DNA of 64,000 nt from positions 50,751-114,750 of the forward strand of contig CAWHEP010000003.1 of assembly GCA_963828525.1 (NCBI GenBank), read 5' to 3'. The position numbers and the translations under genes were made by a program. Below are positions 4,556 through 57,487 of this stretch, piece by piece (within the stretch, counting starts at the first letter, position 1; each line of letters begins with the position of its first letter). The stretch is from an uncultured Verrucomicrobiae bacterium. Its GTDB lineage: Bacteria; Verrucomicrobiota; Verrucomicrobiia; Chthoniobacterales; Chthoniobacteraceae. The notes beneath the pieces are model-generated. The model was given only the letters and a program-made list of their open reading frames with translations. It was not told where the DNA came from and made no database searches.

Positions 4556-6557
4556 CTAAAACTGCGCGCTGACACGCCACTCGTCTAGGAGCGGCTTCGG
4601 AACCTCGCTCAAGAACCGCGAGGGGCGCTGGAATGTCTCTCCGTAGCCCGCGCCCAGTCGCATGATCGGATAGGTCATATAGAGCTCGTCTCTTGCGCGG
4701 GTTACGGCCACATAGAAGAGGCGCCGTTCCTCTTCGATTGCTTCATCGGACTCGAGGGAGCGGGCGCTTGGAAACATGCCGTCCGCCATCCAGATGAGAA
4801 AAACAACCTTCCACTCAAGCCCCTTGGCCTGGTGGATGGAGGAAAGGATGACCATCTCGTTATCCCGCTCTCCACCGCCAAGTTCGGTCTCCGTCTCCAG
4901 ACCGCTCACCAGCGCGAGCTGATCGAGGAACAGGTGAGGATCATCATATTGCCTGGCGTACTCACTCAGTGTCCGGAGATCCTCCCGGCGCGCCTCGTAG
5001 TTGGAGAACTTTGACTTGAGGTAATCGTCATAGATTGCCTCGAGCACGGATTCAAGCATCAGAGCGGGGGGGCGCGGCTTTCCACCCGGAGCGATTTCGT
5101 CAAACGTGCAGACGAGCTGCTTCCAGGCTTTTGCGCTCCTGGCAGTCACGCGAACCGGTTCCAGGAGCTTTGCGAAGGAAGAGATCGGACCGTTCGTCCC
5201 CTCCCCCACTTGCTTCCAAATCTGTTCCGCGGAACGCGCGCCGATGCCCGGCAAGAGGCGAACCACGCGCTTCAATGCCACTTCATCTCGCGGGTTCACG
5301 ACAAATTTCAGGAAGGCCGCGGCGTCCTTTACATGAGCTTGCTCGAAAAACCGCAAGCCGCTGGTGATTTGGAACGGCACGCCGTGCCGGGTGAGTTCCA
5401 TCTGCACCTCCATCGAGTGGTAATGTGCCCGATAGAGGATGGCAATTTCATCAAGTTCGCAACCTTCGTCACGTAGCTCCAGAACGCGTTGCGCGACAAA
5501 CAAGGCTTGCTGTCTTGAGTCGCCGAGCGGCACAAGCGCGGGCCTGGAATCACTCACCGCGCGGTGCGGTTGCAGCTCCTTTTTGAACTGCCGGACGTTG
5601 TTCGAGATGACCGCGTTTGCGACGGACAGTATTTCCGGGACACTCCGGTAGTTGATCTCGATCTTGTAAACGGAGGCGCGCGGGTAACGCTTTGGAAAAT
5701 CCAGGATGTTCTGAAAGTTCGCGCCCCGCCAGGAATAGATCGACTGCGCGTCATCGCCAACCACCATGATGTTGCCGTGATTGGCCGCGAGGGAGTCGAT
5801 GAAATCCGCCTGCAGCTTATTTGTATCCTGGTACTCATCCACCAGGATGAATTGGAACTGGTAGCGGTACATTTCAGCGACCTTTTCGTCGCTTCGGAGC
5901 AGTTCCAGCGGCTTCTCCAGTAAATCATCGAAATCCAGGGAATTCGCCGACTTCTTCCTTTCCTCGTACCCGGAGGCGCATGTTCTCGATCTGTGGCAGG
6001 AGAGGCAGGAAGTAACTGTATTTCGATTCGAGAACCTCTCCGAGCGAGCGGTTTGTGTTAATGGAGAAACTGAAGATATCGGCCAGAATCTCCCCTTTCG
6101 GGAAGCGTTTATCTTTCGGATCGAGGCCAGAAGTGGCTATGACGGAGTCCAGCAGATCTTGCTGATCCTCGCGATCCATGATCGAAAAACCGTTCTGGAA
6201 TCCAGCTGAAACAGCATGGCGGCGGAGCATACGATTGCCGATGGAGTGGAAGGTCCCGCCCCAAAGCCCTGCTGTCTCATGCGGGACGAGCGCGGAGACG
6301 CGATCCAGCATCTCGCGCGCCGCTTTGTTGGTAAAGGTTACAAGCAGGATGTTGTTGGGCGCTATGCCGTTCTCGATGAGGTAGGCGACCCTGTAGATGA
6401 GAGTGCGTGTCTTACCGCTGCCGGCTCCTGCTATCACGAGCGCTGGCCCGGGTGGCGCTGTTACGGCGGCATGCTGTTGCGGATTGAGCTCGGCCGCGAA
6501 GTCGATCCTCGGGACCTCCGCCATTGGACGGCGTTTCAGCGTATACTCCCGTGCCAT
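4556..6557 (-). pseudogene. uvrD: UvrD/PcrA-family ATP-dependent DNA helicase, interrupted by one +1 frameshift at 5969-5971
   Basis: The N-terminal ORF 5925-6557 carries Walker A AGAGSGKTRTL. The C-terminal ORF 4556-5872 carries ILVDEYQDTN and VGDDAQSIYSWRGA. Skipping one G of the GGG run restores ...ENMRLRYEERKKSANSLDFDDLLEKPLELLRSDEKVAEMYRYQF... Confidence 0.85.
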
Positions 6558-33923: not shown

Positions 33924-36014
33924 CTATTGAGCTTTTGCGTCTTCAATCGCGTTTCTTCGCAAGCTCTCGGCATGCCGCAAAGCCTCGGCCGCATCAGCTT
34001 TCCTGCCGAGTTCATCAAGAATGACTGACAACATGGCGAACTCACCAGGTTGAGCGGGGTCACGACGAATCGCAGCCATCTCCGCTTCATAAGCCGCGTC
34101 TGGCCTTTTCTGTTTCAGGTCGACCTGCGCGATAAGATTCAGGGGCTCTGTGCCATGGATATTCAATGTACTGGCATGGATAAGCGCGGTAATGGCAGAG
34201 GCTTCGTCGGACCGGGCGAGACGCAGTTGGCTGAGGCGCATATACGAATCATAATGCCACCAGTGCCGCGCCGTATAATCCTCAACCATCCGTTCGGCGT
34301 CCTTCGCGCGAGAAGCCTTCTGAAGAATATCTGCTTCCGTGCTTACCAGATCCCAAACGTCAGGGTTTTTCTTGATCGCTTCGTCCAGAGTCGAGATCGC
34401 CTCCGCGACTTTTCCGTCCTCACTTTCCAGGCGCCCCAGCGCGACAGCCGCCGCCCATGTGCGCGGGTAAGGTTTCGCGCTGGAATCGGCTGGCGCCCGA
34501 GCGGATACCAAATATTGGCGCGCCTCGTCTTTCCTCCCAAGCTCCGCAAGATTGATCCCCAAGTTGATCCTCGCGGGCGCGAAGTCCGGGAACCGCTTTA
34601 CTCCGTCCGTCAAAACTTCCACAGCCTTAACATAATCGTGGCGCTGATTGTAAACGAACCCGAGGTTGGTGTACATGCGGGCCGATCCGGCTCCGGCGCG
34701 GATCGTCTGCTTGTAGAACGCCTCGGGGTTGGCCCATTCCTGGCTGCGGAGCGCTGTCCTTACCCCCAGCGCGAATATCGCCAGCACCAGCAGTCCTGTC
34801 GCGATAGGAATGATTCTCCTGTGAAGCGCGAAGGCACAGCCGGCGAGGAAAAGCAGGAATCCAATGCTAGGAATGTAAATCCAATGTTCGGCGACCTGCG
34901 CGTTCAGAGGAAAAAGATTTGAGATCGGCAGGAAACCCGCCGTAAACCAGACGGCGGAAAACAGGCAGAGGCGCTTCCCTTGGAAGTTTTTCGAAGGCAC
35001 CCATGCTAACAGGGCGAGTGTCGCAGCGCCAAATATGGATAAGTATTCGAATCGTATGTTTTGCTCCCAAACCTCGCGCGTGGCGTAAGTCGCAGGAGAA
35101 AAAACAACCCTTTCCATGTGCAGATCGCCCGGAAAAAGCATGAGGCTGCTGTAGTCGCCGAGGGCCCGAAGCATCAGGAGAATACGGGCGGGAAGTGTCT
35201 CCGCGGAATCTTCCCTCAAGGGCGTTCTCGGCCCCGGCAGACTGCGAAGAACGTAATATGCCATCACTACTCCCAACAGCGCGGCGCACACGGCCACGAC
35301 TGAACGCGCGGAAGGACGAGGTTTGGGCCCTGACGCCTCGAAGATGAGCGCTATGGTGAACAACTCCATCCATACAAGCCCCACTTCCTTGGAGCAAAGA
35401 GCCACAAGGGCGAGTACGAGAGCGAAGGCGTAGAGGCTTATTTTCCCACCGCGAGACGGCACCTGCCGTCCTTTCAGAAATCCCAGCCACGCCGCCAGAG
35501 CGAATAATGCGGCAAGGCTATCTGCCCGGCCCGCGATGTAGGCGACAGCCGCGTTATGGACTGGGTGAATCACCCATACAAGGGACACCATGAACGCAAT
35601 CCCCCGGTCATCCCGCGGATCCCGTGAGACGCCGGCTTCGCTCGTAAGACCCGGCAGGATGTTACACAACAGCTTGAAAAGGAGACACCCGCTAAGTCCA
35701 TGGAGCAGGATATTCGTGAGATGGTAGCCGAAGGAGTTCGTGTTCCACAGCCAGTAGTCCAGCATGTACGACCAGTTCTGAACCGGCCTGTAGTAGATCG
35801 AGAAGGAGTCGAGAAAGAGCCAGTGGCGAAATACCTCAAAGAAAAAGATCGGACTTTTGAAGAATGGATTCTCCCGAACAAGGTAATGGTCATCCCACAG
35901 GATGTCGCCTTGCAGTGCCGGAGAATAAACAAGCAGAGCGCTGCCAAGCAGAAACAGGAGCGCAAGGGAATCGCGAATCCAGATGACTGAGAGGGCCTTG
36001 GTTAATCTGCTCAT
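33924..36014 (-). CDS. TMTC/DUF1736-like GT-C membrane glycosyltransferase fused to C-terminal TPR repeats
   Basis: Polytopic N-terminus with the first-loop motif ILWDDHYLVRENP and YYRPVQNWSYMLDYWLW...GYHLTNILLH. C-terminal TPR array of about 250 aa. I prefer the ATG at 36014. Confidence 0.7.
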   Translation of the reverse strand: MSRLTKALSVIWIRDSLALLFLLGSALLVYSPALQGDILWDDHYLVRENPFFKSPIFFFEVFRHWLFLDSFSIYYRPVQNWSYMLDYWLWNTNSFGYHLTNILLHGLSGCLLFKLLCNILPGLTSEAGVSRDPRDDRGIAFMVSLVWVIHPVHNAAVAYIAGRADSLAALFALAAWLGFLKGRQVPSRGGKISLYAFALVLALVALCSKEVGLVWMELFTIALIFEASGPKPRPSARSVVAVCAALLGVVMAYYVLRSLPGPRTPLREDSAETLPARILLMLRALGDYSSLMLFPGDLHMERVVFSPATYATREVWEQNIRFEYLSIFGAATLALLAWVPSKNFQGKRLCLFSAVWFTAGFLPISNLFPLNAQVAEHWIYIPSIGFLLFLAGCAFALHRRIIPIATGLLVLAIFALGVRTALRSQEWANPEAFYKQTIRAGAGSARMYTNLGFVYNQRHDYVKAVEVLTDGVKRFPDFAPARINLGINLAELGRKDEARQYLVSARAPADSSAKPYPRTWAAAVALGRLESEDGKVAEAISTLDEAIKKNPDVWDLVSTEADILQKASRAKDAERMVEDYTARHWWHYDSYMRLSQLRLARSDEASAITALIHASTLNIHGTEPLNLIAQVDLKQKRPDAAYEAEMAAIRRDPAQPGEFAMLSVILDELGRKADAAEALRHAESLRRNAIEDAKAQ

Positions 36015-36053
36015 GGAACGCCCCTTGACGATAGGGATCCCTCGCCAAACGCG

Positions 36054-36103
36054 CAAACATCCAGTCGCCCCGGTTCAAAGGAGAACGGACGACTGGATGT
36101 TTG
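36054..36103 (-). terminator. long hairpin 15 nt downstream of pseudopilin 1 (terminator or mRNA-stabilising stem-loop)
   Basis: 14-bp outer stem, CAAACATCCAGTCG / CGACTGGATGTTTG on the coding strand, with a 22-nt loop that can form an inner helix. The U-tract is weak. Confidence 0.5.
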
Positions 36104-36118
36104 GAATTTATCCAGCGG

Positions 36119-36517
36119 CTACTTGTATGGAGACCAGAATGCAGCTTCCGCCACATCCGACAGCGTGTTGAATGTGGGTGCGTTCACCTTTGGAACGGTA
36201 TCAACAGAGAACGGCCCGTACGGGTTTCCGAAAAGGTCCGCTCCCGTCGCGTAGAGCGTCGTGCCGGTTTTCAGGTAGTTCTTCAAATCAGTGAAGTTCG
36301 TGACATAACCGGACGTTTTGCTGCTCTCGATGGCATACTGATCCAGGGCGTTGTCAAGCATCCGCAACTCCTCAATGGTGCGGGTGGCTTGTGAGCGCTT
36401 TCGACCGCGAATCCAACTCGGAATCGCAATCGCGGAGAGCAGGCCAATGATAGCTACGACAATCATGATTTCCACCAATGTAAAGCCGCCGCGTGTCCGC
36501 ATGAGCTTTTGTAACAT
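36119..36517 (-). CDS. prepilin-type N-terminal cleavage/methylation domain protein (GspG/pseudopilin-like), copy 1
   Basis: MLQKLMRTRGG|FTLVEIMIVVAIIGLLSAIAIPS has the canonical G|F cleavage site, Glu at +5 and a hydrophobic helix. Confidence 0.85.
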   Translation of the reverse strand: MLQKLMRTRGGFTLVEIMIVVAIIGLLSAIAIPSWIRGRKRSQATRTIEELRMLDNALDQYAIESSKTSGYVTNFTDLKNYLKTGTTLYATGADLFGNPYGPFSVDTVPKVNAPTFNTLSDVAEAAFWSPYK

Positions 36518-36597
36518 GGAGGGTCTTTCAGTTTTCAGGGTTGCATCACAGCCCGGCAGCGGAACCTCTGCTCCGTCCGCCCGCGCCTGTGAAACTC

Positions 36598-36641
36598 AAC
36601 ATCCAGTTGCCCGCGAACAACTAAGCGGACAACTGGATGTT
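36598..36641 (-). terminator. long hairpin 22 nt downstream of pseudopilin 2, paralogous to the one at 36054-36103
   Basis: 12-bp outer stem AACATCCAGTTG / CAACTGGATGTT with a 20-nt loop containing an inner CCGC/GCGG helix. Confidence 0.5.
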
Positions 36642-36663
36642 CCATGAATTTTTTCCTTCTCTC

Positions 36664-37071
36664 TTACATGTAGGGCGACCAGAACGTGTTGGGCGCCACA
36701 TCGGACAAGGAGTTGAAGGAAGCGGCAGGGACTTTAGGAACGAAGTCCACGGAGAACGTTCCGGAGTTGCCGTACTGGTTGCCGAAGAGATCGCTGCCCG
36801 TGCTGTAAAGCGTGGTGCCCGTCTTCAGGTAGTTTTTGAGGTCAGTGAAGGTAGCCGAGAAGCCAGTGGTCTTGCTGGTTTCGATCGCGTACTGGTCGAG
36901 AGCGGAATCCAGCATGCGGAGATCCTCAAGCACGCGAGTCGCTTGGGAGCGCTTGCGAGCACGGAGGAAGTTAGGCACCGCGATCGCCGCCAACAGAGCG
37001 ATGATCGCCACTACAATCATGATTTCAACGAGGGTAAAGCCCCCGCGATTCTTGTTAAGTTTCTGTAACAT
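36664..37071 (-). CDS. prepilin-type N-terminal cleavage/methylation domain protein (GspG/pseudopilin-like), copy 2
   Basis: MLQKLNKNRGG|FTLVEIMIVVAIIALLAAIAVPN. Collinear with copy 1 through to the shared C-terminus FWSPY. Confidence 0.85.
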   Translation of the reverse strand: MLQKLNKNRGGFTLVEIMIVVAIIALLAAIAVPNFLRARKRSQATRVLEDLRMLDSALDQYAIETSKTTGFSATFTDLKNYLKTGTTLYSTGSDLFGNQYGNSGTFSVDFVPKVPAASFNSLSDVAPNTFWSPYM

Positions 37072-37145
37072 ATAATAATGAATTACTGCGTTTGTTTATT
37101 GTTTTGAATTATGCGACTTCTCGCTTACAACCCTTATAAGCAGAA

Positions 37146-39020
37146 GTGATGCCACCGATTGACATAAAGCCAGCACCGAGCCGCAGGTGGTTTGCTTCTG
37201 TACCGGTCTGGCTCTTCCTCCTTGCCTTTTTTGTCCGGCTGATTGTCCTGGCCCGGTTCAGCAACTCCGCCTACCTCATCCCCGCAGGGGGAGACATGAA
37301 GTTCTACAATGACTGGGCTCTCCGCATTTTAAAGGGTGTGTGGACAGACCATCACGCTTTTTACGGTCTCCCCGGCTACGCGTTTTTCCTTGCGGGAATC
37401 TATCGTGCCTTGGGCTACAACCCCTTTGTGGTGGGGCTGCTGCAGTGCGCTTGCGAGGCGACAACAGGCGTCATTATCTACGAATTGGCGCGGGCTGTAT
37501 TCCCAGAATGTCAACCGCCTGGCCAGGTTTGGAGCCGGGGTGAAATTATTGGAATCGCAGCCGCGGCCGGCTGGACGTTCTTCGAGCCCGCGCAGGCCTT
37601 TTCTGTGATCCTGATGCCTACAACATGGCTGGTTTGCGCCTATTGGGCGTGCGTTCTGTGGGCCGCGCGGACACGTTCTTCCTCCGCGTGGCGGCCTTGG
37701 CTATGGATGGGGCTCCTGGTCGGAATCGTGTCTACGATGGTGGCGACGATCCTCTTCATAATCGTTCTTATTGTTGCCGCGATCTGGATCAACGTGGACT
37801 CCCAAAAGCCGCTCCTTGCCCGGCTGGCAAAACTGTCAGGGTCAGTCGGGGTGCTGTTGCTCGGAGTCTTTGCCGGCATGTCCCCCTGCTGGCTCCATAA
37901 CTACTTCGTTGCCGGGGAGCCAGTTCTGCTTTCCGCCCACAGCGGCGTCAACTTCTATATAGGGAATAATCCGCTGGCAAATGGCTATCCGAAAATCCCC
38001 CCAGGCCTCCGTGCCGGACAAGCCGGAATGCTTCAGGATTCCATCACAATGGCAGAGACGGCGGCCGGTCATCCCCTCACCCGCGCCGAGGTCTCCCATT
38101 TCTGGTCGTCAAAGGCCAACGCTTACATCCATTCTCATTTTTTAGAGTGGATTCGTCTAAATTGCATCAAATTTAAGAATTTCTGGAATTCCTTCCAGTA
38201 TGATGACCTTAGTCTCATCACGCTTCTGGAGGAGGAGGGTTTCCTCACCCCATCAATCCGCTTCGGCGTGGTTGCAGCGTTTGGGATTGCAGGCATGATC
38301 ATCGCTGGCATCAGATCGCCACGCTCACGCTGGATCATTGCCGCCATTCTTCTACACATGTGCGCGCTTCTCCCAGTGTTCATTACCGAGCGTTACCGCA
38401 TGGCGGCCGTTCCCGGCCTTCTTCTTATGGGCTGTTACGCGCTTTGGACTTTGTTCACCTCCCTCCTTTCCAGCCGCTGGGGAGAGTCACTGGCTGTCTG
38501 TTCGCTTTGCGCAGCCTCGACGCTTTTCGTGTCCTGGCCTGTATCGGATCCGGGCTTGTGGTCGCTGGACTGCTACAATACGGGGATCAAAGCAACTGAA
38601 GCCGGTCATCTTGAAAGGGCCAAGGAGAAGCTGGAGAAGGCCTATGCGTACGTCCCGAATAATTCTGAGATCAATTTCGCGTTGGGCAACCTTTGGGTGA
38701 AAGAAGGAGAGCCGCGAAAGGCCAAGGCGTTCTATCGCAGAACACTGGAAATCAATCCTCGCCACAGCGGCGCTTACGACAACCTGGGCATGCTCGCGAT
38801 GAACGAACACCAGTGGACGATTGCCCGCGCGTTTCTGTCACGGTCCGCGGACATCGAACCTGGAGACGCCAAAACGCACTTCCTGCTATCCGAATCTCTG
38901 CTGGAGGAAGGTCAAGTGGAACCGGCGGGAGACGAGATCAACAAGGCACTCTCCCTGGCGCCGGACCGAAAGGAATTCCAGGATTTGCAATCGACCATCC
39001 GCGCGAGGGAGCAACGATGA
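37146..39020 (+). CDS. GT39/ArnT/PMT_2-like GT-C glycosyltransferase fused to C-terminal TPR repeats
   Basis: 624 aa and polytopic, with the early-loop motif AGGDMKFYNDWALRI. C-terminal TPRs include AKAFYRRTLEINPRHSGAYDNLG. Start is GTG 37146 or ATG 37149. Divergent from pseudopilin 2. Confidence 0.7.
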   Translation: MMPPIDIKPAPSRRWFASVPVWLFLLAFFVRLIVLARFSNSAYLIPAGGDMKFYNDWALRILKGVWTDHHAFYGLPGYAFFLAGIYRALGYNPFVVGLLQCACEATTGVIIYELARAVFPECQPPGQVWSRGEIIGIAAAAGWTFFEPAQAFSVILMPTTWLVCAYWACVLWAARTRSSSAWRPWLWMGLLVGIVSTMVATILFIIVLIVAAIWINVDSQKPLLARLAKLSGSVGVLLLGVFAGMSPCWLHNYFVAGEPVLLSAHSGVNFYIGNNPLANGYPKIPPGLRAGQAGMLQDSITMAETAAGHPLTRAEVSHFWSSKANAYIHSHFLEWIRLNCIKFKNFWNSFQYDDLSLITLLEEEGFLTPSIRFGVVAAFGIAGMIIAGIRSPRSRWIIAAILLHMCALLPVFITERYRMAAVPGLLLMGCYALWTLFTSLLSSRWGESLAVCSLCAASTLFVSWPVSDPGLWSLDCYNTGIKATEAGHLERAKEKLEKAYAYVPNNSEINFALGNLWVKEGEPRKAKAFYRRTLEINPRHSGAYDNLGMLAMNEHQWTIARAFLSRSADIEPGDAKTHFLLSESLLEEGQVEPAGDEINKALSLAPDRKEFQDLQSTIRAREQR

Positions 39021-50125: not shown

Positions 50126-52579
50126 ATGCAAACTTCACCGAAATCCTTCACCAAGCGGCGATTCCAACCCCTGGATATCGCCTTCGCGATCCTGTTCGCA
50201 GGGTGGGTGCCCTCCATCTTGATGGCAGTGGTTTCATACAGCATTCTTACAAACACTCTTGAGTCCAAAATCGTCATTGACCGCCGCACGCTGGTTCAAA
50301 CGCTCTCGCGACTGATCGGCTATGACCTGGTGCGCACCGCGGAAGTGGTAGAGTATTATCAAAATCTGCCACTCGCCAAGCGCATGGTGTTGCGTCCGTA
50401 CGGTGATCCTGCTGCCCAGGAATGGCTTGCGGACGCTCTTTTCTCCCACCCGAGGATGGATGGTGTTTTCCTTACCGACGCGGGAGGCAGGCTGATATCC
50501 TCCGTGCCCCTCGACCCGAAGCAGATCGGGCAGGTCTATGCGACTGATCGTATGCGGGAGGGTGCCCGTAGCGGGAGGGATGCCTTCACCTCCGCGGTCG
50601 CTCCGCGCCCAATCGACCATAGGCTCGCCACCTTTATTCTCACGCCGATCTCAGCCAAATCCGGCGAAATCCTGGGATACATTGGGGCCACTGAACTTGT
50701 GGAGAGGATCGGACGACGCCTGGCAGCGTTCGACTTCGGCGAGCGATCGGTCGCTCAAGTCATAGACCAGGATGGTTTCCCGTTGTTCGACGCCAGCCTG
50801 GAGGCGAATACCCGCCTCGGGGTTGCCGGCGATGCAAGCCTTGTGCGAAAATTGAGATCACAGCCTGAGGGGCATTTCCAATTCGGCGAAATTCTATTCT
50901 CCTCCAGTCAAGTGGAAGGAACGCAGTGGACCGCGAGCCTCGCGCAGCCCATGGCGGTGGCGTACCGCCCTATTCACGATCTCATCTCCAAAACTGCCAT
51001 CCTTGCCGGGTGGCTCGTTGTGGGAACAAGCATTGCAGCATGGCTCGTGAGCGGCCTTTACCGAAAACAACTCGTTTCGGATGAACGCATTGCGATGGAG
51101 ACTCTGCTGAACGAAAAAATCCTGGCGAACATGCCGGTGGGAATCGCGGTGATAAACCCCGCTACCAGCGAAATCGCGCAGCACAATGAGAGCTGGTTGA
51201 GAATGATGCGCGAGTTCGGAGGCCTCGATAACACGCGCGGCGGCCAACAGATCCGCGTATCCGAGTTAAATCTGGGACTGGATGCTCTTTGTGCCGATGT
51301 CACAGGATCTGGGATCGCTTTTCATGTTCAGGAGAGAGAAGCCATGTCCCCTTCCGGTGAAGCGCGCTTTTTCACGTTGAACCTCATTCGCCTGCAGGAT
51401 GCTCATCAGAAGGCGCCGGGGATCCTCTTTCTCGTGGAAGATAAGACGCCGGATGTCTCGATGCGGCGTGAACTCATAGCGGCGAACACCTCCAAAGATC
51501 AATTTTTGGCGCTGCTCTCCCATGAACTGAGAAACCCTCTTTCCCCAGTCATTATGATGGTTGCCGAGCTTGAGCAGAGGACAGATGGGTCCCCTGAAGT
51601 TCAAAATGCGATTGACGTGATTCGCCGCAATGTTGAGCTGGAAGCCCATCTCATCGACGACCTTCTCGATGTCACCCGCATCACTCATAACAAAGTGGAA
51701 CTCCAGCGCGTCATTGTTGACGCGCACGAGACGATCAAGCGAGCGCTGGAGATTTGTCAAAACGACATAAACGAAAAGAGCTTGAGCATCGTTCTTGATT
51801 TGAGGGCGAAGCGGTATTTCCTCAACGCGGATCCGCAGCGCCTTCAGCAGGTCTTTTGGAATCTCATCAAGAATGGGGTGAAATTCACATCCGAAGGCGC
51901 GATCACGATTCGAAGCCGCAACGAGGGCGAAAATTTGGTTGTCGAGGTGTCTGACACAGGGATCGGTATTGACCCGGAGGCTATCGGACGCATTTTCAAG
52001 GCGTTCGAACAGGTGGAACGCTCCATTACGCGCACATTTGGGGGACTTGGGCTGGGACTCGCCATCTCCAAGGCGATGGTCGATGCCCATGGGGGCACGC
52101 TGGCGGCTGCAAGCGAGGGTAGAGGGAAAGGGGCGACGTTCACAATCGAGCTGGCTACCGTGGACGCCCCTCCGGCAACACCTCCAGCGGAAGCTGCCCA
52201 GCAGAAGAGCACTCGCGCGCGCGGTTCTCGGCGCATCCTTGTTGTCGATGACCATCTTGACACCTGCATGGGCATGAAGATGCTCCTGGAGCGCCGCGGA
52301 TACCACGTCGAGACGGCTCACACCGTGGCGGATGGCATCAAGCAAGCGCAAGGAGGCGGTTTCGACCTTCTCATAAGCGATCTGGGGCTGCCGGACGGAA
52401 CGGGCTATGACCTGATGGAGAAACTGCAATGTATCTCTCCTCTGCAGGGCCTCGCGCTGAGCGGATTCGGGACGGAGGATGACGTCGCGAAATCGAAGGC
52501 CGCGGGTTTCTCCGAGCATCTGATAAAGCCCATAAACATGGGCACTCTGGATGCGATTCTGACTCGCCTCTTTGGGTGA
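50126..52579 (+). CDS. hybrid sensor histidine kinase/response regulator (TM, Cache-like, TM, PAS-like, HisKA, HATPase, REC)
   Basis: H-box FLALLSHELRNPLSPV, ATP-lid sequences SDTGIGI and GGLGLGLAISK, and a REC domain from ILVVDDH... through LLISDLGLPDGTG to ...LIKP. Confidence 0.85.
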   Translation: MQTSPKSFTKRRFQPLDIAFAILFAGWVPSILMAVVSYSILTNTLESKIVIDRRTLVQTLSRLIGYDLVRTAEVVEYYQNLPLAKRMVLRPYGDPAAQEWLADALFSHPRMDGVFLTDAGGRLISSVPLDPKQIGQVYATDRMREGARSGRDAFTSAVAPRPIDHRLATFILTPISAKSGEILGYIGATELVERIGRRLAAFDFGERSVAQVIDQDGFPLFDASLEANTRLGVAGDASLVRKLRSQPEGHFQFGEILFSSSQVEGTQWTASLAQPMAVAYRPIHDLISKTAILAGWLVVGTSIAAWLVSGLYRKQLVSDERIAMETLLNEKILANMPVGIAVINPATSEIAQHNESWLRMMREFGGLDNTRGGQQIRVSELNLGLDALCADVTGSGIAFHVQEREAMSPSGEARFFTLNLIRLQDAHQKAPGILFLVEDKTPDVSMRRELIAANTSKDQFLALLSHELRNPLSPVIMMVAELEQRTDGSPEVQNAIDVIRRNVELEAHLIDDLLDVTRITHNKVELQRVIVDAHETIKRALEICQNDINEKSLSIVLDLRAKRYFLNADPQRLQQVFWNLIKNGVKFTSEGAITIRSRNEGENLVVEVSDTGIGIDPEAIGRIFKAFEQVERSITRTFGGLGLGLAISKAMVDAHGGTLAAASEGRGKGATFTIELATVDAPPATPPAEAAQQKSTRARGSRRILVVDDHLDTCMGMKMLLERRGYHVETAHTVADGIKQAQGGGFDLLISDLGLPDGTGYDLMEKLQCISPLQGLALSGFGTEDDVAKSKAAGFSEHLIKPINMGTLDAILTRLFG

Positions 52580-53381: not shown

Positions 53382-54147
53382 GTTCAACCGCGTCTCCAAG
53401 CTCTTCGGCGACCAGAGCGCGCTGGATGACGTGACAGCCAGCTTCGAGGGAGCAAAAAGCGTTGTTTTGATCGGGCCATCTGGTGGAGGCAAATCCACGC
53501 TGCTTCGCATTGCGGGTGGGCTCGAGACTCCGACGGCGGGTTCTGTAGAGTTGAATGACCGGCCGGTTCCCATTGAGCGAAACGCGCTTCGAGACTATCG
53601 CCGGGGCATAGGGTTTGTCTTTCAAGCCTTCAACTTGTTCCCTCACCTTTCCGCGCTGCGCAATATCACTTTGCCGCTTGAAAAGGTCCATCGCTTCCCT
53701 CCCGCGGAAGCAAGAGAAATAGCGATGGCGGCCCTTCAGCGCTTTCGTCTGGAGGCGCACGCGCATAAACGGCCGGCCGAACTGTCAGGCGGGCAGAAGC
53801 AGAGGATCGCCATCGCTCGCGCCACGGCCATAAAACCAAAGGTCATGATGTTTGATGAACCGACTTCGGCGCTTGATCCGGAAATGACGTCGAGCGTTCT
53901 GGATATCATTCAGGAGCTGAAAAGCGAAGGCCGCGACTTCATACTCGTGACTCATGAAATGGGGTTCGCGAGAATGGCTGCCGATCAAGTCGTCTTCATC
54001 GCGGATGGCAAGGTGATCGAAGTTGGCGCGCCTGAGGAAATCTTCGCGGAGCCGAGGGCGCAACAGTGTCGCGACTTTCTGCAGCGCATCCTCAAGTACG
54101 AAGTTCCCGCTCAAGTCTGTTCCGCTTTGAAGAAACAAAAGCGCTGA
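53371..54147 (+). CDS. polar amino acid ABC transporter ATP-binding protein (GlnQ-like)
   Basis: GPSGGGKSTLL, LSGGQKQRIAIARA and MMFDEPTSALDPE. The TTG at 53371 overlaps the permease stop by 11 nt; the track ORF from 53254 is over-extended. Confidence 0.85.
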   Translation: MKLRFNRVSKLFGDQSALDDVTASFEGAKSVVLIGPSGGGKSTLLRIAGGLETPTAGSVELNDRPVPIERNALRDYRRGIGFVFQAFNLFPHLSALRNITLPLEKVHRFPPAEAREIAMAALQRFRLEAHAHKRPAELSGGQKQRIAIARATAIKPKVMMFDEPTSALDPEMTSSVLDIIQELKSEGRDFILVTHEMGFARMAADQVVFIADGKVIEVGAPEEIFAEPRAQQCRDFLQRILKYEVPAQVCSALKKQKR

Positions 54148-57088
54148 GCGCGGCTTTGAGCTTTTGCACTGCCACCGGTTTGGTGAGGTGCTCGGCAAAT
54201 CCAGCCTCCAGACTCCGGGCAATGTCTTTTTCCATGCCAAAACCGCTGATCGCAATTCCATGAATCGAGCTGGATCGACGAAGTTCACGCATGAGATCGA
54301 CGCCGCTGGCGTCCGGCAAGCCAAGGTCGCTGATAAGAAGATCAAAATCCTTCTGACCCGCTTTTTCCAAGGCCGCGCCCACTGAACTCACGGCTTCCAC
54401 TTCAAAGCCCCAACTCTTCAGGAGCCCGGTTAACGCATGGCGAGTATCGTCATGATCCTCGGCAAGAAGCACCTTTAGATTCGCGCAATGCTCGACGCCC
54501 GTTGGCTGGTTCTCCATGATGACCTGCTCCGCGCTGGGTGCCCGGCAGTTTGCGAGATCCAGCGTAAAGGTTGCCCCCTTGCCCGCGCCGGGACTGCGCG
54601 CGTTGATCGTTCCGCCATGCGCGGCAGCGAGGGCTTTGACAACTGCTAATCCGACTCCCAAGCCTCCGAACTCCCGCACCGTTGTTTCATCTCCCTGCTC
54701 GAACAAATTGAATATCTTTGGCAAGACTGCGGCGTCGATACCCATTCCACTGTCTTCGAATTCGATCCTTAGGAAGCCGTTCTCCTGATCTGAGGATCTT
54801 ATCTCCAAGCGTCCTCCCGGTGGCGTGAACTTTATGGAATTGCGCAGGAGGTTCCAAAAAATCTGTAGCAACCGGGAGGAGTCGGCGTCTGTTTCGGAAC
54901 GTTGAGCCGAGAGATCGAGAACCATTTGCTGTTGTTTGCTGACGGCGTCGGGCTGGCAAATTTCAATTGTATGCCTCAGCAGCGCGTGAACATTCACGCG
55001 CTCCATATTCAGAGAGAGCTTGCCTTTGCTAATCCGCGTCACATCGAGAAGATCATCGATGAGGCGGGCCTCCAACTCGACGTTTCGCTGAATCATCGTA
55101 AGCACCCTCGATACTTCCGCTGGCAGCGGAACGGTGGCCTTTAGGCTCTCAATCGAAGTCAACACGGGGCTGAGGGGGGTCCTTAATTCGTGACTCAGCA
55201 CCGCCAGAAATTGATCTTTGGCGCGGTTCGAAGACTCCGCGGCCTCTTTTGCCTTTTGAAGGTCGTGTGAGCGCGCCGTCATCGCCACAGCAAGCTCGCC
55301 TATATCTTCCGTCTGGCTTGCAAGCTCCCGTTGCAACATGTCCCGCACCCGTTTCGACGCTACCTGGTTTCGCACGCGAAGGCGGAGTTCCTCTATCGAG
55401 AAAGGCTTGGTGATGTAATCTTCCGCCCCTTTTCTAAGAAGATCCATCTTCAGCTCTTCGTCCGCTTTCGCGGTTAGAAGGATCACAGGGATCGGCTTCA
55501 GTTCCGGGCGAGCCTGTAGCCTGTCAAACAACTCCTCGCCGCCCATGCGGGGCATCATCACATCGGTCACAATAAGATCCGGGAGAAGCGAGATCGCTTT
55601 TTCCAGACCTTCCGCGCCATCCATCGCGGAAGCCGTCCTAAACATCTCTCCGATGCTTTCCGTGATGAAACGGTTCATATCTGGATTATCTTCGATGATG
55701 AGCACCAGCGGCTTGTCGTCTGCGCCGTCCGCCGGATTAGTGCTCTGCTCTTCACGGCTCACACCATCCCGCCGGGCGAGCTCCTTCGCGCCGTCAACGA
55801 TTGACTTCAAATCGTCGGAACTCTGGGAGTAGCCTCCCAACGCCTGGGCGTTCGGAGGTTCAGAGCTGACCTTGTACTGGGACGGAGCCCGCAGCGGCAG
55901 ATGCACCTTGAATGCCGCGCCTCCGCCAGGAGCATCCTCAACGGTGACAGAACCTTCATGCAACTCAGCAAATTCCTTCACGATGGAAAGGCCCAGGCCG
56001 GTGCCGCCAGTCCGCGAGACTGTTCCATCTCCTTGATTGAAGCGCTCGAAAATTGCCGCCCGCGCCGCAAGGGGAACTCCTGGCCCGCTGTCTTCAACGC
56101 AAAGACACGCCCTTTCAGCCGTACTCGCCAGCGCGCAATGGATTCTACCCTCCGGTCCTACGAACTTGAAGGCATTGGAGAGCAGGTTTAGCAGTATTCT
56201 TTGCACCTTGTCCGCGTCGACCTGCGCAATGAGCCTGTCTGGTGTTTCAACAGAAAATTCGATGCGGCGCTCTTGTATCGCGGATTCAAAATTGGCGGCC
56301 ATGATTCGCACAAGACGGCTGAGATCCACGCTGGAATAATCCATCTGCATCTTGCCTGCCTCCAGCTTGGAGACATCCAAAAGGTCGTTTACATGCTTGC
56401 GGAGGATCAGCGCATTGCGCCGGACCACCTCCAGTTCATGCCTGTCGCGAGAACCGACCTGCTGCGTCGACATCATTCGATCCACCGGGCCAAGGATGAG
56501 AGTCAGCGGCGTCCGCAGCTCATGACTGGCGTTTGCGAAGAAGGCGGTCTTCAGATGATCCAGTTGCTTGATCTTTTCATAAAGCGACGAGAGCTCGTCG
56601 TTTGCCACCACAAGCTGTTCTTCCCGCTCCGTGGATGTGCGCGCGGCATCGAGTAGCGCGAGAATCCTTGGAACAAGGGGCGGCAGCAGGATCGCGGTCG
56701 TTAGAGATGCAACCGCTGTAACGAGCTTCACCACTCCCGCGAGCCAGTAATGCGGACTCCAAACCGTCCACACCTCCATAAAATGAGTGCTGCCGCAGGC
56801 GATGATGAACAAGCCAAATGCCAGGACCATCGAATGGAAGGGGATGTGACGGCGGGCGGACGCCACCAGAAACGCCAGAGTCGAGGAGATCGCGAAGTAG
56901 GAAAGGCCGATCAACAAGTCTGATGTGACATGCAGCGCGATCAGTGGCTTGTTCCACATGTAACAGGTCGCATGCGGCATGAATGTGCCGTCTCCGCCCT
57001 TTGAGACCTCCGCCAACCCGATAGTAAGAAGCCCTACCGCCACGGCGGTCCCAAGGAGCGCGCTGTAGAGGCGGGGGGTGCCTTTCAT
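54092..57088 (-). CDS. double hybrid histidine kinase with an N-terminal ETR1-like ethylene-binding domain (EBD, HisKA, HATPase, REC, HisKA, HATPase, REC)
   Basis: About 998 aa. Start is ATG 57088, or TTG 57091 as in the track. Two H-boxes (FFANASHELRTPL; FLAVLSHELRTPLSPV) and two REC domains (LIVTDVMMP; LLISDLGLPDASG). See findings for the EBD alignment. Confidence 0.85.
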   Translation of the reverse strand: MKGTPRLYSALLGTAVAVGLLTIGLAEVSKGGDGTFMPHATCYMWNKPLIALHVTSDLLIGLSYFAISSTLAFLVASARRHIPFHSMVLAFGLFIIACGSTHFMEVWTVWSPHYWLAGVVKLVTAVASLTTAILLPPLVPRILALLDAARTSTEREEQLVVANDELSSLYEKIKQLDHLKTAFFANASHELRTPLTLILGPVDRMMSTQQVGSRDRHELEVVRRNALILRKHVNDLLDVSKLEAGKMQMDYSSVDLSRLVRIMAANFESAIQERRIEFSVETPDRLIAQVDADKVQRILLNLLSNAFKFVGPEGRIHCALASTAERACLCVEDSGPGVPLAARAAIFERFNQGDGTVSRTGGTGLGLSIVKEFAELHEGSVTVEDAPGGGAAFKVHLPLRAPSQYKVSSEPPNAQALGGYSQSSDDLKSIVDGAKELARRDGVSREEQSTNPADGADDKPLVLIIEDNPDMNRFITESIGEMFRTASAMDGAEGLEKAISLLPDLIVTDVMMPRMGGEELFDRLQARPELKPIPVILLTAKADEELKMDLLRKGAEDYITKPFSIEELRLRVRNQVASKRVRDMLQRELASQTEDIGELAVAMTARSHDLQKAKEAAESSNRAKDQFLAVLSHELRTPLSPVLTSIESLKATVPLPAEVSRVLTMIQRNVELEARLIDDLLDVTRISKGKLSLNMERVNVHALLRHTIEICQPDAVSKQQQMVLDLSAQRSETDADSSRLLQIFWNLLRNSIKFTPPGGRLEIRSSDQENGFLRIEFEDSGMGIDAAVLPKIFNLFEQGDETTVREFGGLGVGLAVVKALAAAHGGTINARSPGAGKGATFTLDLANCRAPSAEQVIMENQPTGVEHCANLKVLLAEDHDDTRHALTGLLKSWGFEVEAVSSVGAALEKAGQKDFDLLISDLGLPDASGVDLMRELRRSSSIHGIAISGFGMEKDIARSLEAGFAEHLTKPVAVQKLKAALSAFVSSKRNRLERELRT
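56654..56980 (-). other. ethylene-binding-domain-like three-helix membrane module (residues about 38-146 of the kinase)
   Basis: FGLFIIACGSTHFMEVWT aligns with ETR1 FGAFIVLCGATHLINLWT. The Cys codon is at 56795-56797 and the His codon at 56783-56785. Confidence 0.7.
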
Positions 57089-57168
57089 CAATGGACGATG
57101 CTATTTGTTCAGACGCCGACCGTCAAAGCTGAACAGACCTCGATCACGCCGTGAATGAAAATGGCCGC

Positions 57169-57366: not shown

Positions 57367-57487
57367 ATATTTAAGTGTGCAGAAGAAACAAACCGTGAAA
57401 ACGAACCCAGAAAACGCCCCCTGAAGAAGGGAAAGCGGACTTCTGTATATACGGCGGTCTCTCTTTAGTTCAAGCGAAAAAACAAAG

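What the first reader, a model, noticed from the sequence alone, without database searches (positions are those of the whole stretch)
56654..56980. Plant ETR1-type ethylene-binding domain, with the Cu-ligand Cys/His intact, at the N-terminus of a bacterial kinase
Residues about 38-146 of the roughly 999-aa kinase align by eye, without gaps across the three helices, to the Arabidopsis ETR1 ethylene-binding domain as I remember it. The three matches are TSDLLIGLSYFAISSTLAFLV / ISDFFIAIAYFSIPLELIYFV, FGLFIIACGSTHFMEVWT / FGAFIVLCGATHLINLWT, and VKLVTAVASLTTAILLPPLVPRIL / [24 protein letters not shown]. Cys99 (56795-56797) and His103 (56783-56785) fall on ETR1 Cys65/His69, the proposed Cu(I) ligands. 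Asp58, Tyr65 and Lys122 fall on Asp25, Tyr32 and Lys91. An extra hydrophobic segment precedes the domain, as in subfamily-2 plant receptors. There is no GAF domain: helix 3 runs straight into a coiled coil and the first H-box. Ethylene-binding domains outside plants and cyanobacteria have been predicted but rarely tested. The neighbours here (a GH28 polygalacturonase-like enzyme and a GH5) fit a plant-polymer-associated lifestyle.
Basis: partly seen in the sequence, partly recalled or inferred. Interest (0 to 1): 0.78.

Follow-up and report, generated by a model that had tools for sequence, protein, structure and literature searches.

The report
Bacterial ETR1-type ethylene-sensor kinase
A soil-type bacterium (probably Verrucomicrobia) encodes a large sensor kinase whose membrane part is a true relative of the plant ethylene-receptor sensing domain. 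This domain family is already catalogued and widespread in bacteria, so the find is correct but not new in kind.

Summary
The gene at 54092-57091 (- strand, 998/999 aa) carries an N-terminal ETR1_N domain (Pfam PF25487, residues 50-146, E 2.4e-32). A profile-profile comparison with plant ethylene receptors gives 99.4% probability, with gaps only in loops. The Cu-ligand Cys99/His103 and Asp58, Tyr65, Ile68, Ile96 and Lys122 are all in place. There is no GAF domain: helix 3 runs as one predicted helix into the first kinase. The architecture is EBD-HK-REC-HK-REC.

It is not new in kind. The domain matches 7,670 protein clusters and at least 561 loci among bacterial species genomes. More than 100 full-length orthologs with the same architecture exist in Chthoniobacter, Prosthecobacter and filamentous cyanobacteria. 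AzoEtr1 of Azospirillum, which shares 39% identity in this domain, was shown in 2025 to bind ethylene.

The main caveat is ETR1 Pro36, one of the seven residues needed for ethylene binding. It is Ser here and in all 117 orthologs scored at that position. I found no tested member of this Ser-36 clade, so ethylene binding is likely but unproven.

The GH28/GH5 neighbours are real but are not conserved next to orthologs.

The parts
54092..57091 (-). Whole gene: hybrid sensor histidine kinase of 999 aa from TTG 57091 (998 aa from ATG 57088). Architecture is EBD-HK-REC-HK-REC.
   Evidence: ORF list; Pfam; identical 998-aa protein P0158 in the public collection
57011..57070 (-). N-terminal hydrophobic segment (about residues 8-27). 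It is either an extra TM helix or an uncleaved or cleaved signal anchor that would put the PHxxC loop outside the cell membrane.
   Evidence: Hydropathy peak; AF2 helix 6-30; present in many homologs but absent in others, including AzoEtr1
56960..56974 (-). P-H-x-x-C motif (P39, H40, C43) just before TM1, outside the Pfam domain limits.
   Evidence: H and C invariant in 81/81 loci including AzoEtr1, and in 138/140 and 140/140 cluster representatives
56654..56944 (-). ETR1_N ethylene-binding domain (residues 50-146) with three TM helices. Key residues are D58, Y65, I68, S69 (at the ETR1 Pro36 position), I96, C99, H103 and K122.
   Evidence: Pfam E 2.4e-32; hhalign 99.4% against plant EBDs; alignment; AF2 helices 48-78, 86-111 and 115-176, pLDDT about 90-97
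56552..56653 (-). Helical linker (about residues 147-180). It continues TM3 without a break into the first DHp domain; no GAF or PAS is inserted.
   Evidence: AF2 single helix 115-176; no Pfam domain between ETR1_N and HisKA
56354..56551 (-). HisKA 1 (residues 181-246), phospho-acceptor His190.
   Evidence: Pfam; H-box SHELRTP at 190
55889..56218 (-). HATPase_c 1 (residues 292-401); N, G1 and G2 boxes present.
   Evidence: Pfam; motif scan
55373..55705 (-). Receiver 1 (residues 463-573), phospho-acceptor Asp510.
   Evidence: Pfam; motif scan
55025..55222 (-). HisKA 2 (residues 624-689), His634.
   Evidence: Pfam; motif scan
54554..54883 (-). HATPase_c 2 (residues 737-846).
   Evidence: Pfam; motif scan
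54146..54472 (-). Receiver 2 (residues 874-982), Asp922.
   Evidence: Pfam; motif scan

Best explanation
The gene encodes a membrane-bound hybrid histidine kinase whose sensor is a genuine member of the ETR1-type ethylene-binding domain family.

Inferred mechanism: the three-helix domain holds a Cu(I) ion through Cys99 and His103 of helix 2, with Asp58 of helix 1 assisting. Ethylene (or a closely similar small unsaturated gas) binds that copper. The Asp58-Lys122 polar bridge passes the change to helix 3. Helix 3 continues as one rigid helix into the dimerisation/His-phosphotransfer domain of the first kinase.

By analogy with ETR1, SynEtr1 and AzoEtr1 (inverse-agonist model), ligand binding should lower autophosphorylation of His190. 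That would lower phosphotransfer to Asp510 in receiver 1. Receiver 1 in turn should control the second kinase core (His634) and receiver 2 (Asp922). The final output would go to a partner encoded elsewhere.

Shown here: family membership, intact catalytic and ligand residues, topology, architecture, and conservation of the whole protein in Verrucomicrobia and cyanobacteria.

Inferred only: copper binding, ethylene binding, the sign of the response, the flow between the two kinase modules, and the output.
For: Family membership: Pfam ETR1_N E 2.4e-32; hhalign 99.4% against plant EBDs; BLASTP E 2e-32 and 39% identity, with no gaps in the domain, to AzoEtr1. AzoEtr1 binds ethylene in radioligand assays (PMC11819568).

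Key residues: six of the seven residues required in ETR1, plus Lys91, are conserved here and in essentially all relatives. That holds for 81/81 loci and 117-120 of the 120 full-length homologs scored, depending on the residue. The roles of D25, C65, H69 and K91 come from PMC10266040.

Structure: the AF2 model has mean pLDDT 89 and shows 4 helices, with TM3 continuous into the kinase linker.

Kinase modules: both H-boxes, the N/G1/G2 boxes and both receiver Asp residues are intact.

Conservation: more than 100 orthologs have the same EBD-HK-REC-HK-REC architecture at 43-55% identity over at least 94% of the length. This argues for a conserved working unit.

Sign of the response: the inverse-agonist model and kinase inhibition by ethylene are stated for ETR1, SynEtr1 and AzoEtr1 in PMC11819568.
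Against: ETR1 Pro36, listed among the residues essential for ethylene binding (PMC6586836, citing Wang 2006), is Ser69 here. It is Ser in 117/117 aligned orthologs and in 119/140 close cluster representatives. In a rough NJ tree the window protein sits in a derived Ser-36 clade, separate from all receptors shown to bind ethylene. I found no report of a tested member of this clade.

No copper-handling, ethylene-related or response-regulator gene lies next to the gene. No Hpt domain is present, so the output is unknown. No solved structure exists for comparison.
Confidence: 0.6

Rival explanations
1. The domain is a true ETR1_N family member and binds Cu(I), but the Ser-36 clade has a different ligand preference or very different kinetics. 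Possibilities are another alkene, CO, an isonitrile-type molecule, or much weaker or faster ethylene binding. In that case it would not work as a high-affinity ethylene receptor.
For: The position of ETR1 Pro36 is Ser, and in some relatives Ala, Thr or Gly. Pro36 is reported as essential for ethylene binding in ETR1 (PMC6586836). The Ser is invariant across the full-length orthologs, so it is selected, not decay. A single substitution (D25N) changes ETR1 affinity 100-fold and occurs naturally (PMC10266040, PMC11971883). Family members can therefore be tuned.
Against: All copper-site and signal-relay residues are strictly conserved. Pro-bearing bacterial EBDs are as similar to the window domain (52-61% identity) as many Ser-bearing ones, and a small Pro group nests inside the Ser clade. 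This suggests the position is tolerant in this background.
Confidence: 0.25
2. The domain senses copper availability or membrane redox state itself, through the Cys/His site and the PHxxC motif. It would not sense a gas.
For: The Cys/His/Asp site binds Cu(I) in ETR1 (PMC10266040). A further invariant His/Cys pair lies on the outer side in bacterial members.
Against: In every characterised member the copper is a tightly bound cofactor, not the signal (PMC10266040, PMC11819568). No copper homeostasis genes lie nearby.
Confidence: 0.07
3. The transmembrane region is only a membrane anchor or dimerisation module that has lost sensing. The protein is driven by phosphotransfer into its receiver domains from other kinases, such as the neighbouring dCache kinase.
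For: There are two receiver domains and a second kinase module. That module is 46.6% identical to the HK-REC part of the adjacent dCache hybrid kinase. A multi-kinase network is therefore plausible.
Against: Strict conservation of polar and charged residues inside the membrane helices (D58, C99, T102, H103, K122) across phyla is not expected for a mere anchor.
Confidence: 0.05

Closest known systems
AzoEtr1 of Azospirillum brasilense Sp7 (OH82_RS30505; L081:2462-4039)
   Same: It is a bacterial ETR1-type EBD at the N-terminus of a histidine kinase with no GAF domain. It has the PHxxC motif before TM1 and the D/Y/I/I/C/H/K residues. It shares 39% identity with no gaps across the domain. It has been shown experimentally to bind ethylene (PMC11819568).
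   Different: AzoEtr1 keeps Pro36 (YYSIP) and lacks the extra N-terminal hydrophobic segment. It is a 525-aa, single-kinase protein (the window kinase matches only residues 285-492; the region in between was not examined here), followed by its own response regulator gene. The window protein has Ser at that position, two kinase cores and two receivers, and no adjacent regulator.
Arabidopsis ETR1 and plant ethylene receptors (subfamilies 1 and 2)
   Same: They share the same Pfam domain, the same three-helix layout, the same Cu ligands (C65/H69) and the D25-K91 pair. They are also histidine-kinase-type receptors, and ETR1 also ends in a receiver domain. Subfamily 2 receptors also have an extra N-terminal hydrophobic stretch (PMC6682694).
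   Different: Identity is only 27-30%. Plants have a GAF domain between the EBD and the kinase, Cys4/Cys6 instead of PHxxC, and Pro36. They signal mainly through CTR1 rather than phosphorelay.
SynEtr1 (slr1212) of Synechocystis PCC 6803
   Same: It is a bacterial EBD-containing histidine kinase that signals by phosphotransfer, and ethylene negatively regulates it (PMC11819568, PMC7700396).
   Different: SynEtr1 carries a chromophore-binding GAF domain (PMC7700396) and is a dual light/ethylene receptor, and it keeps all seven ETR1 binding residues. I did not have its sequence for a direct comparison.
Uncharacterised orthologs annotated 'ATP-binding protein', e.g. Chthoniobacter flavus Ellin428 (P0209), Prosthecobacter spp. 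(P0189, P0193, P0195), Oscillatoria acuminata (P0238)
   Same: They have the same EBD-HK-REC-HK-REC architecture at about 960-1030 aa and the same Ser at the Pro36 position. Identity is 43-55% over nearly the full length.
   Different: None in kind; the window protein is simply another member. The closest full-length relatives are 79% identical (P0159, which starts later or is truncated at its N-terminus) and 54-55% identical.

Membership tests
ETR1_N / ethylene-binding domain (Pfam PF25487) | Significant match to the family profile above the curated threshold | tested here: met
   111.5 bits against a cut-off of 27, E 2.4e-32, profile positions 2-97 of 97. hhalign against the plant EBD profile gives 99.4%.
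ETR1_N / ethylene-binding domain (Pfam PF25487) | Three transmembrane helices at the N-terminus, directly upstream of the signalling domains | tested here: met
   Hydropathy peaks at about 52-78, 85-107 and 117-146. AF2 helices at 48-78, 86-111 and 115-176 with pLDDT about 90-97.
ETR1_N / ethylene-binding domain (Pfam PF25487) | Cu(I) ligands Cys65 and His69 on helix 2, one turn apart | tested here: met
   C99 and H103 in the motif FIIACGSTH. They are invariant in relatives.
Functional ethylene receptor (seven-residue criterion of Wang 2006 as used by the Binder laboratory) | All seven residues required for ethylene binding in ETR1 are conserved (D25, Y32, I35, P36, I62, C65, H69). The residue list is partly from my own recollection; I35, P36, I62, C65 and H69 are confirmed in PMC6586836 and D25 in PMC10266040. 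| tested here: not met
   Six of seven are conserved. The P36 position is Ser69. It is Ser in 117/117 aligned full-length orthologs.
Functional ethylene receptor | Asp25-Lys91 polar bridge residues for signal relay | tested here: met
   D58 and K122 are present. K is found in 120/120 orthologs and D in 117/117 aligned.
Functional ethylene receptor | Saturable, copper-dependent binding of labelled ethylene | not testable with these tools
   This needs heterologous expression and a 14C-ethylene binding assay.
Plant-type receptor architecture (EBD-GAF-HK[-REC]) | GAF domain between the EBD and the kinase | tested here: not met
   No GAF hit even at E<=1. HisKA starts 35 residues after the EBD.
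Hybrid histidine kinase (two-component phosphorelay) | HisKA with conserved His, HATPase_c with N/G1/G2 boxes, and a receiver with phospho-acceptor Asp | tested here: met
   Two complete sets are present: H190/D510 and H634/D922.

The most novel reading that the evidence does not exclude
The window protein belongs to a very large, untested Ser-36 clade of ETR1-type domains found in Verrucomicrobia, filamentous cyanobacteria, Acidobacteria, Chloroflexi and others. In this clade the Pro that is essential in ETR1 is replaced, and an invariant outer PHxxC motif is present. The clade could be a copper-based gas sensor with a ligand range or binding kinetics different from canonical ethylene receptors. 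If it does bind ethylene, it would show that Pro36 is dispensable, and it would extend functional ethylene sensing to Verrucomicrobia through a tandem two-kinase relay.
Probability: 0.25. Interest if true: 0.6.

Novelty: new member of a known kind. Interest (0 to 1): 0.3.

Why it matters
If the protein binds ethylene, it would add Verrucomicrobia, abundant soil and rhizosphere bacteria, to the organisms that can perceive the plant hormone. The conserved EBD-HK-REC-HK-REC family would also offer a GAF-less system in which helix 3 couples directly to a kinase. That could be useful for working out how the copper site signals. The Ser-for-Pro36 change gives a concrete test of which residues are really needed for ethylene binding.

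The general idea is already established. Bacterial ETR1-type receptors exist in many phyla, and one of them works in a proteobacterium. The gain here is therefore incremental.

Tried and rejected
- **Solved structures.** A sequence search of the PDB with the N-terminal 177 aa gave no hit even at E<=10. Foldseek of the AF2 model against the PDB gave no match below E 1. No solved EBD exists to compare with.
- **Finding the source contig.** An exact-protein look-up failed twice. The cluster look-up gave no accession or name. The organism is therefore inferred only from nearest relatives: a Spartobacteria MAG at 71% identity in the EBD, with synteny to L001 and L048.
- **NCBIfam.** There is no specific family for the N-terminus. 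Only generic kinase models matched, all below their cut-offs.
- **Conserved neighbours.** I tested whether GH28/GH5 or any regulator is a conserved neighbour and rejected it. Only the ABC transporter (one locus) and a GT2 (one locus) are syntenic.
- **Papers not held.** Wang 2006, Lacey & Binder 2016 and Carlew 2019 were not available. The list of seven residues and the earlier taxonomic surveys therefore rest on secondary citations and my own recollection.
- **Model geometry.** Distances between D58, H103, K122, S69 and the PHxxC motif could not be measured.
- **Promoter and terminator scan.** It gave nothing above chance. A terminator-like hairpin after the GH28 gene, and a promoter-like site just upstream of the start, are compatible with the kinase being its own transcription unit, but this is weak evidence.
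Full report
**1. What is there**

The finding lies inside a single long ORF on the - strand, 54092-57091. It is 999 aa from a TTG codon. An ATG follows one codon later, and the 998-aa ATG form is the one present in the public protein collection as P0158.

Reading the DNA directly confirms Cys99 as TGC at 56797-56795 and His103 as CAT at 56785-56783. Other ORFs overlapping this stretch on either strand have no support. The long ORF has strong homology along its whole length.

**2. Is it an ETR1-type ethylene-binding domain?**

Yes. The evidence is:

- Pfam-A gives ETR1_N (PF25487, 'Ethylene receptor 1-like, N-terminal domain') for residues 50-146. It covers profile positions 2-97 of 97, with E 2.4e-32 and 111.5 bits against a curated cut-off of 27. 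No competing membrane-sensor family matches.
- A search with a plant ETR1 N-terminus that I recalled from memory returned named plant ethylene receptors at 82-91% identity. This validates the recalled sequence as a plant receptor and supplied real plant sequences.
- BLASTP of the window N-terminus against a plant ERS1 fragment gives 30% identity and E 6e-16, with gaps only in the two inter-helix loops.
- A profile-profile comparison of 16 bacterial EBDs with 20 plant EBDs gives probability 99.4% and E 5e-22.
- The multiple alignment places D58, Y65, I68, I96, C99, H103 and K122 on ETR1 D25, Y32, I35, I62, C65, H69 and K91.

**3. Anatomy**

Hydropathy shows four hydrophobic segments, at about residues 8-27, 52-78, 85-107 and 117-146. 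An AlphaFold2 model built on a 112-sequence alignment has mean pLDDT 89. It shows helices at 6-30, 48-78, 86-111 and 115-176. Helix 3 therefore runs unbroken out of the membrane towards HisKA, which begins at residue 181. No GAF or PAS domain is inserted.

The rest of the protein is made of two kinase-receiver modules:

| Domain | Residues | Key residue |
|---|---|---|
| HisKA 1 | 181-246 | His190 |
| HATPase_c 1 | 292-401 | N, G1, G2 boxes present |
| Receiver 1 | 463-573 | Asp510 |
| HisKA 2 | 624-689 | His634 |
| HATPase_c 2 | 737-846 | N, G1, G2 boxes present |
| Receiver 2 | 874-982 | Asp922 |

All catalytic motifs are intact. The second HK-REC module is 46.6% identical to the HK-REC part of the neighbouring dCache hybrid kinase (50126-52579, +). 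It is only 28% identical to module 1.

**4. How common is it?**

The 115-aa domain matches 7,670 representatives of 50%-identity protein clusters at E<=0.001, and 5,074 at E<=1e-10.

The best 80 come from:

- Verrucomicrobia (Spartobacteria, Chthoniobacter, Prosthecobacter)
- many filamentous cyanobacteria
- Acidobacteria
- Chloroflexi
- Methylomirabilota
- Binatia
- Nitrospirae
- Gammaproteobacteria

The best hit, a Spartobacteria MAG at 71% identity, also shares the downstream ABC transporter. The window is therefore probably verrucomicrobial, but its own genome was not found.

A full-length search returned more than 100 proteins of about 960-1030 aa. They have the same Pfam content and 43-55% identity over at least 94% of the length. 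They include Chthoniobacter flavus Ellin428, Prosthecobacter, Oscillatoria acuminata, Laspinema and Phormidium, and nearly all are annotated only as 'ATP-binding protein'.

In my own domain mapping of the 80 loci, more than half carry two kinase cores after the EBD. The tandem architecture is thus a conserved family, not a peculiarity of this window.

**5. What is already known**

Bacterial EBDs have been predicted for years in cyanobacteria and proteobacteria, with varied output domains (PMC7700396). An analysis of 1,221 eukaryotic and prokaryotic EBDs underlies the current Asp25/Cys65/His69 copper model and the Asp25-Lys91 relay (PMC10266040). SynEtr1 of Synechocystis and, in 2025, AzoEtr1 of Azospirillum brasilense were shown to be functional receptors (PMC11819568).

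I recovered AzoEtr1 from the Sp7 plasmid p1 (L081:2462-4039). It is 525 aa, as published, and is followed by a receiver gene. Its EBD aligns with the window domain at 39% identity with no gaps in the domain, E 2e-32. It also lacks a GAF domain.

**6.

ETR1 Pro36 is among the residues reported as essential for ethylene binding (PMC6586836, citing Wang 2006). The validated bacterial receptors keep all seven such residues (PMC11819568, PMC6682694). In the window protein this position is Ser69 (YFAIS against YFSIP).

| Set scored | Residue at the Pro36 position |
|---|---|
| Aligned full-length orthologs | Ser 117/117 |
| Loci fetched (80 genome loci plus the AzoEtr1 plasmid locus L081) | Ser 78/81; Ala 2; Pro 1 (AzoEtr1 itself) |
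| Close cluster representatives | Ser 119/140; Ala 10; Pro 7; Thr 2; Gly 2 |

A rough neighbour-joining tree of 334 EBDs, rooted on plants, puts the Pro-type sequences basally. These are the plant receptors, AzoEtr1 and the gammaproteobacterial stand-alone EBDs. The window falls in one large derived Ser clade, with a small nested 'AIPP' group and scattered small residues.

Pro-bearing bacterial EBDs are 52-61% identical to the window domain, no more distant than many Ser-bearing ones. I read this as a clade-specific, selected substitution rather than decay. However, I found no tested member of this clade, so ethylene binding is an inference.

**7. Another conserved feature**

A P-H-x-x-C motif (H40, C43) lies just before helix 1 and outside the Pfam domain limits. 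It is invariant in 81/81 loci, including AzoEtr1, and in 138-140 of 140 representatives.

Plants instead have Cys4/Cys6, which form the dimer disulfides. One conserved Cys in cyanobacterial receptors has been suggested to play the same role (PMC6682694). I did not find the invariant His discussed in the papers I read. It could help copper loading or dimerisation. This is untested.

**8. Context**

Neither is found next to orthologs in any of the 80 loci.

The remainder of the window is ordinary chromosomal content: MreB/C, PBP2, RNase G, succinate dehydrogenase, PutA, transporters, glycosyltransferases and TPR proteins. There are no copper-handling or ethylene-related genes. No response regulator or Hpt gene is adjacent.

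In some cyanobacterial orthologs a CheY-like receiver and a CheC/CheX-like protein follow the kinase.

**9. Mechanism**

The mechanism is given in the best explanation. In short, Cu(I) is held by C99/H103 with D58, a gas ligand binds the copper, and D58-K122 relays the change to helix 3. A rigid helix couples this to kinase 1. The signal then passes through receiver 1, kinase 2 and receiver 2 in turn. By analogy with ETR1, SynEtr1 and AzoEtr1, ethylene should inhibit kinase activity (PMC11819568). Only the sequence-level parts are shown here.

**10. Verdict**

The observation and its main interpretation are correct. The protein is a new member of a known and already catalogued domain family. 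It has a conserved but uncharacterised tandem-kinase architecture and a clade-wide Ser at the Pro36 position, which keeps the ligand question open. Interest is modest.

Noticed in passing
window 4556-6557 (- strand): A UvrD-type helicase gene is split into two ORFs (5925-6557 and 4556-5872) by a single frameshift near 5880-5930. The protein continues in another frame.
   Followed up: partly
window 45496-48176 (- strand): A class II (B12-dependent) ribonucleotide reductase is split into two ORFs (46713-48176 and 45496-46653) by a frameshift near 46650-46720. Together with the UvrD case, this suggests indel errors in the assembly rather than pseudogenes. The 999-aa kinase ORF is intact.
   Followed up: partly
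window 56960-56974 (- strand), residues 39-43: An invariant P-H-x-x-C motif lies before helix 1 in essentially all bacterial EBDs examined, including the validated AzoEtr1. It is outside the Pfam domain limits and is absent from plant receptors.
   Followed up: partly
window 50126-52579 (+ strand): A dCache-type hybrid histidine kinase lies two genes away. Its HK-REC part is 46.6% identical to the second HK-REC module of the EBD kinase, so the two are paralogous modules that could cross-talk.
   Followed up: partly
L006:3468-4519, and likewise L012, L016, L021: In Oscillatoria/Laspinema orthologs the EBD-HK-REC-HK-REC gene is followed by a CheY-like single receiver and a CheC/CheX-like phosphatase, then another kinase. 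This hints at a motility-type output in cyanobacteria.
   Followed up: partly
window 33924-44940: A cluster of TPR-repeat proteins lies with PMT/ALG6-like and GT87-type membrane glycosyltransferases and a methyltransferase. It is possibly a protein or cell-envelope glycosylation locus.
   Followed up: no
window 57098-57126 and 57417-57433 (- strand): A promoter-like site lies immediately upstream of the kinase start, and a terminator-like hairpin lies 55 nt after the GH28 stop. This is compatible with the kinase being transcribed alone. The counts are not above chance.
   Followed up: no
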